From the NCBI RefSeq assembly GCF_009914755.1, contig NC_060934.1: a stretch of DNA of 64,000 nucleotides. One strand, 5' to 3'. The notes beneath the pieces are model-generated. The model worked only from the letters and a program-made list of their open reading frames with translations. It was not told the DNA's origin and did no database searches. Origin of the DNA: the human T2T-CHM13v2.0 reference genome, Homo sapiens. This document shows positions 35,616-58,106 of the stretch, piece by piece. The first letter of the stretch is position 1. Each line of letters opens with the position of its first letter. A program made the translations under genes and the position numbers.

Positions 35616-35758
35616 CTTTGCAATAGTCAACTGAACCATCTTCTTGGAGTACTCATGAAGATGGAAGTCTACATGGAGAATACAGGATGAATCCACTCTG
35701 TCTCCTGCAGTGAAGTCTGTTTGAAGGATGTATTTGGCTGTCTTCTGGACAGGCCATT
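35616..35758 (-). pseudogene. Antisense exon within the ENTPD1 3'UTR, candidate 3' exon of the decayed gene
   Basis: Strong acceptor ttgtttgtttctgttattag, AAG|gtaaaa donor, 143 nt; a phase-2 start fits the donor at 38519. Confidence 0.4.
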
Positions 35759-36342
35759 CTAATAACAGAAACAAACAAGTTATTTTAAAACTTATTGGAA
35801 TATTCAAATATTAACCAAAGTAGAAAAATATAATACACATCCATGTGCCCATCACAGAACTTCACTGATTATCATCATTTAGCCAGTCTTGAAGAAGCAA
35901 GTGCTAATTACAATCACAAATGAAACAAGATTCAGACTTCATGAAGAGCACTGCGCTATAATAAAAGAAGAAATGAGCACATACATTCTTTTACTGACAG
36001 TCAAATGGTGAAGGTGGGCAGAATCATTATGTGATGCAACATGGCAAAAGTATACAGACAGTGCATCCAGAGGAAGGCACCTTGCTGAATGACTAGAATG
36101 GAAGTAGGAGACATTTTGCAGGCCCCCTTCATCCTGCAGGGAGAACCAGAACCACAGCAGCTCTATTTGCCTATTCCTCTTTAAATTACAAAGTTAAAAT
36201 TTGGGAGTAGTAGAAAATCAATTGGTTATCTTATAGAGTCTCCTAGAATATTTCATTGGCATTGAGAAGGTGGAAAATGCAAATTATATACTTTAAAATG
36301 TAATTTTTGCTTTTCACATATGCTTAAAGCCTAAAACCTCTT

Positions 36343-36348
36343 AATAAA
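36343..36348 (+). terminator. Distal poly(A) signal AATAAA of ENTPD1
   Basis: AATAAA followed ~20 nt later by GU/U-rich sequence (tttgtgg, tatgtttt). Confidence 0.65.
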
Positions 36349-37941
36349 CTTCTTCTGAAATATACATTTGTGGGACAATTCTAGTATGTTTTAAATGTAA
36401 CTGTTTCATAGTGTTTATAGAGAACTCTATTTTTTTCCAACTGCAATCCCTTCTTAACCCAAATTTATAACATGCTGTATTGTATGGATCTGTCAGTAGT
36501 GGGTCAGTTAAAAGGAAGAGGGTAGGAGGAATCCTGTCTGGCTGTCATCTGCCTTATTTTTTCTTAGGCCAAGGCTTTTTAGGATAACTAAATTTTTCCT
36601 TTAGGTTTCTCCACTTGATTGGAATACCTTTGAGTCATTTTAATCCTGTCTGTAGTAGATGAAGAAATTAGGGAAGTATGAAAAACTTGGTAATTTGAAA
36701 CAAAAACTTGAATCTGATTTTAATAGAGTAGCTTAGTTCAACATGGAATATCCATTTATATTGAAACTCATTCTTTCATATAGTGTACTTGTAACCCCGA
36801 CCCCATATCTGGTACTGAGTGACAAGAGGGAAGAAAAAGGAAGGCTTTTGAGAAAAGGCCTTTTTATATGCTCTCTTTGGAATACTATAAAATTCCTAAC
36901 CCAACCCACCATCAGTAATAGAGAGGTTTTCCTAAGAGAAGCAAGGAATTTTTATTGACCAGCATTGTCTTTTATCTTGTACAATGGAAGACAGTGGGTT
37001 GGAGTTAGGGTGTAGAATTATAATTATGGAATAGAGCTATATTATCATAAGGGAAATGAAACAATTTCTGGTTTAACTGGTACCAACTGCTAGCTACTGG
37101 AAACCTAGGTACAGATAAACTGATCAGTTTTGCAACCCCAAGCCATGAAGGAGAAGTGACAGTCATTTCAAGAGGTCCTGGCCAACCTCTGTAGAGGTTG
37201 TATCTAAACCCTGAATATGTGTGAATTCATGAAACACTTATTTTCTAACATGTTTACATATCAATGGGAGTGATTAGGGATAGGGTTGAGAAAGATTATC
37301 CCATAGCTAAATCAATATTTACCTCTGACTTCTACCTCTGCAATTATTGGTACCAAGATTCCTGTCAAGTGAAGAAGGTGAGGAAGATAGATGAGATATT
37401 AGTAGAAAAGTTATGAGAGAAAAACTGAGTAGTCTCTAAAGAAATACCAAAATAACCCACACTAGGTTCAGGCAGGAGTTAACATCTAACCAGGTATATA
37501 CAGAATAATGTCATAGATAACTGGAGAAAATATATTGTAAATCGGGGAAAGGCACATAATGACTTTCTCTATACACCTCTTTGTGTCCCTTCAACCTTTT
37601 CTCTCTTCTGTGGCCTTATTTTCTATTCCAGTTTTTCTATTCCAGCACTTCTCTTTTCCTGACTTTTCTTTTGATTTCTATACCTTTTTATATCCTTCCT
37701 TCTCTTGTTCTTTCCCTTTAGGGTGCCATGCTTTACTTTTCTCCTTGCCTTGCACTTCAATTTCTGAGGGCAGTGATCTGCTAATGCTCTCACCTCAGTG
37801 ATACAGATTTAAAAACTACTGAATGATAGAAGAAAGGACTACTGGGTTGTGTATGTCAAAAATATTTTTTGTAGCACATCTATAAGGAATATTTTTAAGA
37901 CCCTTGTCTAAAAATCATGGCCTTTACATTTATGTTTCTGA

Positions 37942-38249
37942 TTTTTTTTTTTTTTTTTTTTTTTTGAGATGGAGTCTCTCACTCTGTTACCCAGGCCGGA
38001 GTGCAGTGGCGCAATCTTGGCTCACTGCAACTTCTGCCTCCCGGGTTCAAGTGACTCTCCTGCCTCAGCCTCCCAAGTAGCTGGGATTACGGGCGCCTGC
38101 CACCACGCCCAGCTAACTTTTGTATTTTTAGTAGAGACAGAGTTTTGCATTGTTGGCCAGGCTGGTCTCAAACTTCTGACCTCAGGTGATCCGCCCGCCT
38201 TGGCCTTCCAAAGTGCTGGGATTACAGATGTGAGCCACTGCACCTGGCC
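37942..38249 (-). mobile_element. AluS
   Basis: Reverse Alu; TSD tgtttctgat. Confidence 0.94.
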
Positions 38250-38519
38250 TGTTTCTGATATTCTTTATGGTCAAGAATTAAACTATTTAAATGTAAGTTA
38301 TATTTACTTCAATCCTAAGAAATAACTTAATGGGGTATTTTCAATTCATAGCAATCAGAAATAACCTCGGTTGTAAATTGAATCTATAGCGCAACAAATA
38401 TTGAGTGATAATTTTATACCACTTTTGAATGTTTATACAAATGCCCTAATTTGAAAGAAGTTTGAGTGTTTCATTGAAATAAAATACCATTCCTTAGTGT
38501 AGAGAACAAAATGACTGAC

Positions 38520-55990: not shown

Positions 55991-56485
55991 TACTGTCTAG
56001 CTCTGGTTTTAATACTATGTCTAATTTTACATAAAAATCCTTTATCACATATTCCACACTTTGAAACTCTAGCACTATCAACACCTAAGCTGAAAATGGT
56101 CTCTTATCCCTTAAAATTAAGGTTGTAAAAGTATTAAACTAAACAATAAAAAAAAAATCCACCTTGTTGTCATTGGCTCTAATTCTATATACTCCAAATA
56201 CAAACAACTGTAGTGATTATGTCCCATTTAAGATTCTCTGCATTCCCTTTCCACATATTGGGAATTATTTCTATAAAGGCAGTAAGCAGGGTCAATGAAA
56301 ACTTTAATCATTGCATTTTGGAGCCAAAGGGGACCTCAGAAAATCAATTTCTAATTGCTATCTTTGTGGAGGTCAAAAACTGAAGTCTTGAAAGAATTTA
56401 ACTGTCTTACTACTATATTATAGGAGACATGAGACTCAGTCATTATCCATCTTGAATTTTTAGTGATTTAAAATGTAGTATTATA

Positions 56486-56792
56486 GGCCGGGTGCGGTGG
56501 CTCACGCCTGCAATCTCAGCACTTTGGGAGGCTGAGGCGGGCGGATAACGAGGTCAGAAGATCGAGACCATCCTGGCTAACACAGTGAAACCTTGTCTCT
56601 ACTAAAAATACATACAAAAAATTAGCCGGGCGTGGTGGCGGGCACCTGTAGTTCCAGCTACTCAGGAGGCTGAGGCAGGAGAATGGCATGAACCCGGGAG
56701 GCGGAGCTTGCAGTGAGCCGAGATCGCACCATTACACTCCAACTGGGGCGACAGTGCGAGACTCCATCTCAAAAAAAAAAAAAAGAAAGAAA
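56486..56792 (+). mobile_element. AluY
   Basis: AluY diagnostics; TSD aaaat(g/t)tagtatta. Confidence 0.95.
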
Positions 56793-57608
56793 ATTTAGTA
56801 TTACCATTGAACTCAACACTTGAAAAATGGTAGAACCATCCACATGCATAGTAAAACTACTATTTCCTTTGACTTAAATCTGGAACTTTAAAATATCAGA
56901 CTTTAAAAGTGCATTAGCTTTTTAATCACTGGCATCATACTGCATCTAGTAAAATTCCACTTTTTCATGTGAACTGCTAAGACAGATGCTTTCATATCTT
57001 GTCACTGCAATTTTTAGTTTTCTCATAAGGTCTAAGAATTATTTTCCTCTAGAGCAGGGTTTTAAAATTCTGCTCTTCGAAGTGTCCTTCTGCCCCTTAG
57101 TCTGTGGGTGGAAAGTGAAGGAAGGAGAATAATTATCATGTCAAGTGGACTAAGTCTGGATCCTCAATCCCCTGCTTCAACCAACCCAACTCCCCACTTA
57201 CCATATCTGCTTTATATAACGGGCTTCGGAGCAAGATTTAATTGAAAGATTTCTCTGTTAAAGTTCAAAAATTACTGTTGTAATACCCATCTCACTTACG
57301 TTTTTATTTCTTCCGTTTTCATCATATTGCTGTCTTTCCCTCCTTTTGTTTCTCTGTCCCTTTTTCACTTTTCCTATTTGCAACTATATTTCCTTCTAGT
57401 TATTTTGCTTTTTTAAAAGGATAAGTTCAGTGTTTTTTTTCCTCTTTGCACAACCAATGGTTTTTAGAAAAAGAATATTGTATGAGTATATGAAGGACTA
57501 AAAACATTGCTAAGAGATTATTCATGGGCAATTCTGAAATTAATATTAAAATAACCAAGAGAATATCTTAATTCACTTTCCAAGTGCAGTATTAAAAAAA
57601 AAATTCTT

Positions 57609-57923
57609 GCCAGGTGTGGTGCCTCACGCCTGTAATCCTAGCACTTTGGGACGCCGAGGTGGGCAGATCATCTGAGGTCAGGAGTTTGAGACTAGCCTGG
57701 CCAACATGGCGAAACCCCACCTCTACTAAAAATACAAAAATTAGCCAGGCGTGGTGGCGGGCGCCTGTAATCCCAGCTACTCAGAAGGCTGAGGCAGGAG
57801 AATCACTTGAACCCAGGAGGCGGAGGTTGCAGTGGGCCGAGATCACGCCACTGCACTCCAACCCGAGTGACAGAGCAGGACTCTGTCTTAAAAAAACAAA
57901 ATAACAACAAAACAAAAAACAAA
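57609..57923 (+). mobile_element. AluS
   Basis: Alu consensus with A/C-rich tail. Confidence 0.94.
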
Positions 57924-57974
57924 CTTTCTATTTTAAGACCTACCCATGATAACAATATACATTTGCAACTTTAC

Positions 57975-58106
57975 CTTAACTTCATAATATCTTGTGGTGT
58001 ATGTTAAATCAATAATTAATCCGAGCTCCTCATTTAGTGCTTTTATTGAGCTAATCAAGTCTTTTGGTATAAACTTCTGGGTTGGAGTAAGTCTCTGATT
58101 AACTGT
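57975..58106 (-). pseudogene. Intact exon of a DUSP11/PIR1-like RNA 5'-phosphatase paralogue (TVNQRLTPTQKFIPKDLISSIKALNEELGLIIDLTYTTRYYEVK)
   Basis: tttttcatttttcatcatag acceptor, AAG|gtaaag donor, 132 nt, phase 0-0, no stop; aligns without gaps to recalled human DUSP11 SFEKKLAPEECFSPLDLFNKIREQNEELGLIIDLTYTQRYYKPE (23/44 identical by my count). Confidence 0.85.

What the first reader, a model, noticed from the sequence alone, without database searches (positions are those of the whole stretch)
35616..58106. Fossil of an intron-containing DUSP11/PIR1-like RNA 5'-triphosphatase gene on the - strand, tail-to-tail with ENTPD1
Seen: four colinear minus-strand exon-like segments (57975-58106, 42808-42917, 38520-39853, 35616-35758), mostly with canonical splice signals; the first translates to ...NEELGLIIDLTYTTRYY..., the others carry stops and frameshifts. 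Established: DUSP11 is a cysteine-phosphatase-fold RNA 5'-tri/diphosphatase related to baculovirus BVP and the RNGTT triphosphatase domain, it limits RIG-I activation by 5'-ppp RNA, and functional human DUSP11 is on 2p13, not next to ENTPD1 (10q24). Inference: splice sites plus only ~52% identity mean this is not a retrocopy but a separate, anciently duplicated gene that died on the human lineage (unitary pseudogene). It had a long repetitive C-terminus unlike DUSP11. Linking the three downstream segments to the DUSP11-like exon is inference from strand, order and, among those three, phase. I do not know whether it is already annotated.
Basis: partly seen in the sequence, partly recalled or inferred. 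Interest (0 to 1): 0.92.

Follow-up and report, generated by a model that had tools for sequence, protein, structure and literature searches.

The report
Dead human copy of DUSP11's sister gene
Between ENTPD1 and CC2D2B on human chromosome 10 lies the decayed, intron-containing remnant of an ancient second DUSP11-type RNA phosphatase gene that is still intact in dogs, bats, pangolins, armadillos, birds, reptiles and sharks but has lost its start codon and catalytic exons in humans.

Summary
Exon 57975-58106 (-) is open, has ag/gt splice signals, and has the same 132-nt length and boundaries as the matching exon of human DUSP11 on chromosome 2. [quoted passage not shown] In a tree it nests inside the mammalian branch of that paralogue (support 100).

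They are exon 7, the large repeat exon 8 and the last exon.

I add:
- a small intact exon at 37323-37361;
- a probable first exon just outside the window (66751-66780), with CTG in place of ATG;
- an Alu with an 11-bp target duplication inside exon 8.

Exon 2 and the three catalytic exons could not be found in the window or anywhere else in the human genome.

ENTPD1-AS1 reuses the old last-exon acceptor.

No primate or rodent protein of this paralogue was listed, and the colugo model lacks the P-loop exon. The loss is therefore probably older than the human lineage.

No paper on this gene was found in the searches run. Confidence is about 0.93. This is a new member of a known kind, of moderate interest.

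The parts
57975..58106 (-). Exon 3 of the dead gene. It is 132 nt (44 codons), open, with ag/gt signals.
   Evidence: DUSP11 match at E 1.6e-9. Same 132-nt length and ag/gt boundaries as the DUSP11 exon on chr2; 81/132 nt and 23/44 aa identical. 38-41 of 44 aa identical to nine mammalian orthologues. Profile HMM E 2.7e-21.
42808..42917 (-). Exon 7 (SNLGM...DFHG). It has one in-frame TAG where orthologues have W. The acceptor is intact. The donor and its phase are uncertain.
   Evidence: E 4e-12 to colugo, 81% over 36 columns; 29/34.
38520..39836 (-). Exon 8, the large exon for the repeat tail. Homology runs from about 39821 in three frames, with at least five in-frame stops, and ends at an intact donor (38520|gt).
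   Evidence: (summed E 3e-111 to colugo).
39598..39614 (-). Run of 17 T at the point where orthologues read SFF. This is the site of the first frameshift in exon 8.
   Evidence: The frame classes of the tblastn pieces (39818 vs 39603) differ, as an 11-nt surplus would predict.
38602..38919 (+). Alu-type insertion in exon 8 (318 nt including one copy of the duplication). It is flanked by an 11-bp target-site duplication at 38591-38601 and 38909-38919.
   Evidence: 18 other copies in the 74 kb searched; the duplication was found exactly twice in 38501-39000.
37323..37361 (-). Exon 9. It is 39 nt, open, with ag/gt signals, and is in phase with exons 8 and 10.
   Evidence: (E 0.03-0.035; 11/16 aa to colugo and to armadillo).
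35563..35758 (-). Last coding exon, down to the mammalian-type stop TAA (35565-35563). Two earlier stops (TGA, TAG) interrupt it. Its acceptor and first 143 nt are the annotated ENTPD1-AS1 exon 35616-35758, which ends at a gt inside the old coding sequence.
   Evidence: (E 1.5e-15 to colugo), plus the hub annotation given with the finding.
35471..35562 (-). Stretch after the mammalian stop that still aligns, with one frameshift and one stop, to the longer C-terminus of reptile and bird proteins (DYNYG motif).
   Evidence: (E 7e-4 with the gecko protein P0011). Chicken C-terminus.
58107..64000 (-). Upstream intron space running out of the window; no exon 2 was found in it. The probable exon 1 lies OUTSIDE the window at 66751-66780 (L014 2751-2780). 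It reads LVKKKSIPSG where orthologues read MVKKNSIP(N/D)G, so CTG stands where the start codon should be. It is followed by GG|gtgagt in the same intron phase as DUSP11 intron 1, and it lies in the CpG island at the CC2D2B start.
   Evidence: exon 1 alone at E 3-23, not significant; phase match; GC 0.57-0.69, CpG o/e 0.72-0.99. Exon 2 was not found.

Best explanation
This is a unitary (unprocessed, single-locus) pseudogene of the vertebrate paralogue of DUSP11. [quoted passage not shown]

The ancestral gene lay on the minus strand. It sat head-to-head with CC2D2B at a shared CpG island and tail-to-tail with ENTPD1, and it had about ten exons. It encoded an N-terminal cysteine-phosphatase domain of the DUSP11/RNGTT/baculovirus type, with the P-loop HCTNGINRTG in orthologues. 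It also encoded a long tail of degenerate repeats of about 31 aa.

In human, the probable start codon reads CTG. Exon 2 and the three exons for the catalytic core (4-6) are gone. Exons 7, 8 and 10 carry stops. Exon 8 also has two frameshifts and an Alu insertion. Exons 3 and 9 are still open by themselves. No protein can be made.

What remains in use is the last-exon acceptor, as an exon of the lncRNA ENTPD1-AS1, and probably the promoter island, now the CC2D2B start.

Shown here: the homology, the exon structure, the lesions, the absence of the catalytic exons from the whole assembly, and the existence of intact orthologues.

Inferred: the enzymatic role of the intact gene as an RNA 5'-tri/diphosphatase, by likeness to DUSP11; loss of the missing exons by deletion; and an old date for the loss (before or early in primates).
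For: Exon 3 matches human DUSP11 at E 1.6e-9, then RNGTT and the baculovirus phosphatase more weakly. Nine distinct PDB sequences matched at E<=10.

The human genome holds only two matches to the peptide: the peptide's own site and the DUSP11 exon on chr2. That DUSP11 exon is also 132 nt with ag/gt at the same places.

A search of 1.84 billion representative proteins gave 77 hits at E<=0.001. The best are 86-93% identical, up to 986 aa long, and have repeat tails.

Named relatives include coelacanth, sharks, frogs (dusp11.2), lizards, snakes, turtles, alligator, many birds, dog, fox, panda, otter, seal, four bats, pangolins, armadillo and colugo.

Tblastn of these proteins on the window finds exons 3, 7, 8, 9 and 10 in the same order on the minus strand.

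In a tree of 35 rows the DUSP11 and dusp11.2 clades each have support 100. The human exon sits inside the mammalian dusp11.2 group, also at 100.

Some species hold both genes, for example Rhinolophus, Rhineura and Phoenicopterus.

The armadillo orthologue aligns to the whole DUSP11 core at E 3e-63 with the P-loop conserved, and matches Pfam DSPc.

For the catalytic exons, the dog protein searched against the whole human assembly finds residues 168-240 only on chr2 and chr6. Residues 241-272 match nowhere at E<2.5; one chr17 row (248-352, E 6.3) is the only overlap. Nothing matches them on chr10. A profile of 60 orthologues run over 5014 six-frame fragments of 74 kb finds only exon 3 (2.7e-21) and exon 7 (0.024).

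The lesions are documented.
Against: Synteny of the intact gene with ENTPD1 and CC2D2B in other species was not testable here. Orthology therefore rests on sequence, on the tree and on the shared tail.

Exon 1 alone is not statistically significant (E 3-23).

Exon 3 has only 3-6 differences in 44 aa from other mammals. The human lineage shows only 1.3-1.8 times as many private changes as colugo (55-68 against 35-41 of 417-476 aligned residues). This is less decay than a very old death would predict, unless the tail is weakly constrained everywhere.

The exon 7/8 junction cannot be made in-frame with the present splice sites.

Absence of primate and rodent proteins from annotation-derived databases does not show absence of the gene from those genomes.
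Confidence: 0.93

Rival explanations
1. It is a retrocopy, or a recent segmental duplicate, of human DUSP11 that has decayed.
For: The peptide's best solved-structure match is DUSP11.
Against: The pieces are spread over more than 22 kb and carry splice signals at DUSP11's intron positions. Exon 3 is 23/44 aa identical to DUSP11 but 38-41/44 to dusp11.2 orthologues. The tree places it in the other clade at support 100. The tail exons have no counterpart at DUSP11 in the genome search.
Confidence: 0.01
2. The locus still encodes something in human: a shortened non-catalytic protein or a peptide from the open exons.
For: Exons 3 and 9 are open and keep their splice signals. The colugo model is a long open frame without the P-loop exon. 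An alternative frame of exon 7, used by predicted dog isoforms, is also open in human.
Against: CTG stands where the start codon should be. Exon 3 ends in phase 0 while exon 7 needs two preceding bases. There is one stop in exon 7, at least five in exon 8 and two in exon 10, plus two frameshifts and an Alu in exon 8. RefSeq annotates only a lncRNA here (hub table).
Confidence: 0.03
3. The good preservation of some exons reflects a new RNA-level role as exons or regulatory parts of ENTPD1-AS1 or ENTPD1's 3' UTR, rather than a recent death.
For: The annotated ENTPD1-AS1 exon 35616-35758 starts exactly at the old last-exon acceptor (hub table). The last exon lies antisense inside ENTPD1's long 3' UTR exon 25276-36364 (hub table).
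Against: The hub table gave exons for only one of the four ENTPD1-AS1 transcripts, and that transcript uses none of exons 3, 7, 8 or 9. The reused exon itself carries stops and is no better preserved than the rest (40/61 to colugo).
Confidence: 0.1

Closest known systems
Human DUSP11 (PIR1), chromosome 2
   Same: The cysteine-phosphatase fold family is the same. Exon 3 has the same length and boundaries, and intron 1 has the same phase. Intact orthologues of the chr10 gene align to the whole DUSP11 core with the P-loop kept.
   Different: It belongs to a separate clade that already exists in cartilaginous fishes. Exon 3 is 52% identical in amino acids. The paralogue has a long tail of about 31-aa repeats that DUSP11 lacks. 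The human copy is dead.
[quoted passage not shown]
   Same: This is the orthologous group. Exon 3 is 86-93% identical. The tail is colinear and 65-71% identical to colugo by tblastn pieces. The mammalian stop after ...YF is shared.
   Different: In those species the predicted proteins are open and carry the catalytic domain. Exceptions are the colugo model, which lacks the P-loop exon, and a 108-aa elephant fragment. The human locus lacks exons 2 and 4-6 and is full of lesions.
Classical human unitary pseudogenes (named from recall: GULOP, UOX)
   Same: It is a single-locus gene with intact orthologues elsewhere, with introns retained and disabling mutations and missing exons in human.
   Different: The rodent copy also seems to be missing from protein databases. 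Mouse-referenced or human-referenced screens would therefore not find it (inference).
RNGTT triphosphatase domain and the baculovirus RNA 5'-phosphatase
   Same: They belong to the same wider family. Exon 3 matches them at E 0.008-0.5 and the armadillo orthologue at about 1e-25.
   Different: They are much more distant, and there is no guanylyltransferase domain here.

Membership tests
DUSP11/RNGTT/baculovirus-type cysteine RNA 5'-phosphatases | Sequence homology to the catalytic core | tested here: met
   Exon 3 vs human DUSP11 chains, E 1.6e-9. The armadillo orthologue covers the whole core at E 3e-63.
DUSP11/RNGTT/baculovirus-type cysteine RNA 5'-phosphatases | P-loop HCxxGxxR(T/S) with the catalytic cysteine present at the human locus | tested here: not met
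   The exon that carries HCTNGINRTG in orthologues was not found by tblastn, by the whole-genome search or by the profile HMM. The human locus is a relic of a member, not a working member.
DUSP11/RNGTT/baculovirus-type cysteine RNA 5'-phosphatases | RNA 5'-tri/diphosphatase activity of the intact orthologue | not testable with these tools
   Inferred from DUSP11. Passages of the introduction of PMC11828774 describe DUSP11's removal of 5'-PPP and its link to RIG-I.
dusp11.2 orthology group | Groups with dusp11.2 and not with DUSP11 in a tree | tested here: met
   Both clades have SH-aLRT 100, and the human exon lies inside the mammalian dusp11.2 group at 100. Only 44 aa of human sequence went into the tree (23% of the columns).
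dusp11.2 orthology group | Colinear family-specific C-terminal tail | tested here: met
   exons 7-10 align in order to colugo, armadillo, bats, pangolin and carnivores. The tail hits only chr10 in the human genome.
dusp11.2 orthology group | Conserved position between ENTPD1 and CC2D2B in other vertebrates | not testable with these tools
   The protein databases give no genomic context, and no other vertebrate genome is held.
Unitary pseudogene | Disabling lesions in a gene that keeps its introns | tested here: met
   CTG in place of ATG. Stops in exon 7 (1), exon 8 (at least 5) and exon 10 (2). Two frameshifts. An Alu with a target duplication. Splice signals.
Unitary pseudogene | No intact copy of the same gene elsewhere in the genome | tested here: met
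   One search gave 14 matches at E<=10: five on chr10, all in this locus; four at DUSP11 on chr2; one on chr6 (presumably RNGTT, not verified); and four at E>2.5.
Unitary pseudogene | Intact orthologue in other species | tested here: met
   These are predicted proteins; none is experimentally characterised in the papers I found.
Processed pseudogene (retrocopy) | Intronless, contiguous copy of an mRNA | tested here: not met
   The exons are spread from 35563 to 58106 (and to 66780), with splice signals at ancestral intron positions.

The most novel reading that the evidence does not exclude
dusp11.2 is a second, uncharacterised vertebrate RNA 5'-triphosphatase with a repeat tail. Its catalytic domain is under tighter constraint than DUSP11's own.

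It has been lost or disabled repeatedly in mammals: in primates, probably in rodents and others, and at the catalytic exon in colugo. It is kept in bats, carnivores, pangolins, armadillo, birds and reptiles.

Its presence or absence would shift how much 5'-triphosphate self and viral RNA is visible to RIG-I-type sensors. If so, humans and mice lack a layer of control that bats and birds still have.
Probability: 0.25. Interest if true: 0.75.

Novelty: new member of a known kind. Interest (0 to 1): 0.55.

Why it matters
DUSP11 is treated in the papers I saw as the cell's dedicated 5'-triphosphate RNA phosphatase, one that sets RIG-I sensitivity (passages of PMC11828774).

This locus shows that vertebrates ancestrally had two such genes. 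The human genome keeps the wreck of the second. Several mammal groups noted for unusual virus tolerance or exposure, namely bats, carnivores and pangolins, keep it intact.

Neither human nor, apparently, mouse has a working copy, so screens that start from those two references would miss it.

It also gives a clean origin for one ENTPD1-AS1 exon.

No paper on the paralogue came up in my searches for 'dusp11.2', 'DUSP11-like', 'complex-1-interacting phosphatase-like', DUSP11+pseudogene+ENTPD1, DUSP11+phosphatome+pseudogene, ENTPD1-AS1+'unitary pseudogene' and DUSP11+paralog. The one hit for the phrase is a name in a chicken spleen gene list.

Whether GENCODE already lists a pseudogene here could not be checked.

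Tried and rejected
- **Pfam on the 44-aa peptide:** 0 families. The peptide is too short, so this is not evidence against homology.

- **Search for exons 2 and 4-6.** Tblastn used 14 orthologue N-termini at E<=100; I read only minus-strand hits above 40000. Five mammalian proteins were run at E<=50; I printed only the minus-strand hits of two of them, colugo and armadillo. A profile HMM built from 60 of the 222 proteins then held, chosen by motif, was also run. Nothing convincing was found.

- **Weak exon 6 candidate.** The stretch 56171-56224 (-) has 7/18 aa identical to orthologues (E 2.4-11) and is followed by AG|gt in the right phase. I do not accept it. The upstream part does not match, a stop lies just before it, the HMM did not rank it, and 39% identity is far below the other relic exons.

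- [13 protein letters not shown] at 57812-57850.** This resembles exon 2 but lies downstream of exon 3, inside a masked repeat. It is chance.

- **Protein Atlas search of the chicken tail:** no usable hit.

It was not repeated in that form; one search served instead.

- **Dating the loss from relative rates** gave only a modest human excess. I draw no date from it.

- **One row was left out of the tree.** P0122, the Rhineura dusp11.2 protein, did not match my motif pattern.

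
Full report
**What is in the sequence**

On the minus strand, 57975-58106 is an open 44-codon stretch. 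It reads ...NEELGLIIDLTYTTRYY... An ag lies directly upstream (58108-58107) and gtaaag directly downstream. The other two frames of the same stretch are full of stops.

Against all solved structures, nine distinct sequences matched at E<=10. The three best are chains of human DUSP11 (E 1.6e-9). Then come the mRNA capping enzyme RNGTT (0.008-0.054) and the baculovirus-type RNA 5'-phosphatase (about 0.5). Pfam gave nothing for so short a peptide.

**Relation to DUSP11 itself**

The window's own assembly holds exactly two matches to the peptide: the peptide's own site, and a site on chromosome 2 at 58% identity. That chr2 site is a DUSP11 exon. It is also 132 nt long, is bounded by ag and gt at the same codons, and is 81/132 nt and 23/44 aa identical.

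DUSP11's preceding exon is 76 nt and starts with the last base of a split codon.

So the chr10 piece is an exon of a gene with DUSP11's intron layout. It is not a retrocopy.

**The real relatives**

A search of 1.84 billion representative proteins returned 77 hits at E<=0.001, 12 of them at <=1e-10. The best are 86-93% identical to the human exon. They run up to 986 aa and have long, repetitive C-terminal tails.

Two word-index searches gave names.
- In the first, 841 proteins scored at E<=0.001 among 1108 candidates, with the best 120 listed.
- In the second, 88 scored at E<=1e-6 among 211 candidates.

The group is called 'dual specificity phosphatase 11, gene 2' (dusp11.2) in Xenopus. [quoted passage not shown] The species named are:
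- coelacanth, chimaera, sawfish and rays;
- lizards, snakes, turtles and alligator;
- many birds;
- among mammals: dog, fox, jackal, panda, otter, seal, four bats (Pteropus, Rhinolophus, Saccopteryx, Rhynchonycteris), pangolins, armadillo and colugo, plus a 108-aa elephant fragment.

Several species hold this gene as well as ordinary DUSP11, for example Rhinolophus, Rhineura and Phoenicopterus.

A search with the colugo tail alone found 10 clusters, all from the mammal groups just named.

No primate or rodent protein of this type was listed. Primates appeared only as ordinary DUSP11.

**Tree**

The tree used 35 rows: 18 dusp11.2, 16 DUSP11 and the human exon. One Rhineura row was left out because my motif filter missed it.

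It splits into two clades, each with SH-aLRT 100. The dusp11.2 clade runs from cartilaginous fishes to mammals. The human exon sits inside its mammalian subgroup, also at 100. The root is a midpoint root, for drawing only.

The duplication therefore predates jawed-vertebrate radiation.

From recall and untested here: 2p13 (DUSP11) and 10q24 are classic paralogous regions (LBX/TLX, EMX, VAX, HK pairs). The two genes may therefore be whole-genome-duplication partners.

Branch lengths in the dusp11.2 clade are much shorter than in the DUSP11 clade. Where the gene survives, its domain is tightly constrained.

**Exon map of the human relic** (minus strand, window coordinates; from tblastn with dog, parrot, coelacanth, gecko, colugo, armadillo and others)

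| Exon | Coordinates | State |
|---|---|---|
| 1 | 66751-66780 (outside the window) | Probable. Reads LVKKKSIPSG against MVKKNSIP(N/D)G, so CTG stands where ATG should be. |
| 2 | - | Not found (76 nt expected). |
| 3 | 57975-58106 | Intact. |
| 4-6 | - | Not found. In orthologues they run from DLPKS... through HCTNGINRTG to ...PMR. |
| 7 | 42808-42917 | One TAG where orthologues have W. |
| 8 | 38520 to about 39836 | Three frames, at least five stops, an Alu insertion. |
| 9 | 37323-37361 | 39 nt, open, ag/gt, in phase with both neighbours. |
| 10 | 35758 to TAA at 35565-35563 | Interrupted earlier by a TGA and a TAG. |

*Exon 1.* It ends GG|gtgagt, the same split-codon phase as DUSP11 intron 1. 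It lies in a CpG island at the annotated CC2D2B start. Alone it is not significant (E 3-23).

*Exon 8.* The first frameshift falls in a run of 17 T where orthologues read SFF. The second is near 39379. The insertion is 318 nt, between 11-bp direct repeats at 38591-38601 and 38909-38919, and it matches 18 other repeat copies in the 74 kb searched.

*Exon 10.* Beyond the mammalian stop, the sequence still aligns to the longer reptile and bird C-terminus down to 35471.

**Missing catalytic exons**

Three searches failed to find them.
- Tblastn was run at permissive thresholds.
- The dog protein was searched against the whole human assembly. Residues 168-240 matched only DUSP11 on chr2 and one chr6 site, presumably RNGTT. 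Residues 241-272 matched nowhere at E<2.5; one chr17 row (248-352, E 6.3) is the only overlap. There were 14 matches in all at E<=10.
- A 201-position profile of 60 orthologues was run over 5014 six-frame fragments. It scored only exon 3 (2.7e-21) and exon 7 (0.024); the next hit was at E 5.7 and was not colinear.

The surviving exons are 59-93% identical to colugo. Exons that were merely decayed should therefore have been seen, and I infer deletion.

A weak look-alike of exon 6 at 56171-56224 was examined and not accepted.

**What the intact gene is**

The armadillo protein aligns to the full DUSP11 core (residues 4-183, E 3e-63) with the P-loop kept. It matches Pfam DSPc above its cut-off.

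The chicken tail has about nine tandem units of 30-32 aa around a GPGQRxRPFHDHQ core. Mammalian tails, and the human relic, are degenerate versions of it.

By likeness to DUSP11, the expected activity is removal of gamma and beta phosphates from 5'-triphosphate RNA. This is inference. DUSP11's role in limiting RIG-I ligands is taken from passages of the introduction of PMC11828774.

**When it died**

Compared with eight outgroup mammals, the human relic has 55-68 private amino-acid changes against 35-41 for colugo, over 417-476 aligned residues. That is a modest excess, and I draw no date from it.

The colugo model skips exactly the 36-aa P-loop exon and has no Pfam hit. The elephant model reads into the intron after exon 3.

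Together with the lack of primate and rodent proteins, this suggests an old loss and repeated losses in mammals. Missing annotations, however, are not missing genes.

**Afterlife**

The annotated ENTPD1-AS1 exon 35616-35758 begins at the old last-exon acceptor and ends at a gt inside the old coding sequence (GGT AAA = G K in orthologues) (hub table).

The last exon lies antisense within ENTPD1's long 3' UTR exon (hub table).

**Literature**

Seven full-text searches found no paper on this paralogue or on a pseudogene at this locus. Six returned nothing relevant.

The seventh (for the phrase 'complex-1-interacting phosphatase-like') returned one paper, where the phrase is only a gene-list entry in a chicken spleen transcriptome (PMC3409229, one passage read).

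RefSeq annotates no pseudogene here (hub table). GENCODE could not be consulted.

**Verdict**

This is a previously undescribed (as far as my searches reach) unitary pseudogene of an ancient DUSP11 sister gene. As a kind of thing it is ordinary. It is moderately interesting because the living gene is unstudied and belongs to a pathway that gates innate RNA sensing.

Noticed in passing
P0188 (colugo protein), residues about 115-125: The colugo model joins ...FLWENAEN directly to AFGEARGH..., skipping exactly the 36-aa P-loop exon in frame. It gets no Pfam DSPc hit, yet its 579-aa frame is otherwise open. This is either a catalytically dead survivor or a gene-model artefact.
   Followed up: partly
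window 42808-42933 (-), alternative frame of exon 7: Predicted dog and jackal isoforms (P0002-P0004) skip exon 6 and read exon 7 in another frame (VILEWMSG...). The same frame is open in human across the whole exon (E 4e-7).
   Followed up: no
tree: End branches in the dusp11.2 clade (0-0.13) are much shorter than in the DUSP11 clade (0.01-0.4). The paralogue that humans lost has the more conserved catalytic domain.
   Followed up: no
window 35471-35562 (-): After the stop shared by mammalian proteins (...YF*), the human sequence still reads AIDYNYGMPIDCRTEE..., like the bird and reptile C-terminus (VDYNYGLPLDY...). This could be leftover from a stop gained in the mammalian stem, or a hint that the extension was still read in early mammals.
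   Followed up: partly
window 56171-56224 (-): Weak look-alike of exon 6 (GH....C.YL......PM, 7/18 aa), followed by AG|gt in the expected phase. It was not accepted as a relic.
   Followed up: yes
L014 2100-3300 (window 66101-67300): A CpG island (GC up to 0.69, CpG o/e 0.72-0.99) holds both the annotated CC2D2B start (66760, +) and the probable exon 1 of the dead gene (66751-66780, -). This looks like a former bidirectional promoter.
   Followed up: partly
P0008 (elephant, 108 aa): The elephant model reads through the exon 3 donor into apparent intron sequence and stops. This suggests that the gene is also broken in elephants.
   Followed up: no
P0015 (922 aa, source unnamed): One dusp11.2-type protein has replaced the usual tail with dozens of short NERMGPM-type repeats, so the tail is a hotspot for repeat turnover.
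   Followed up: no
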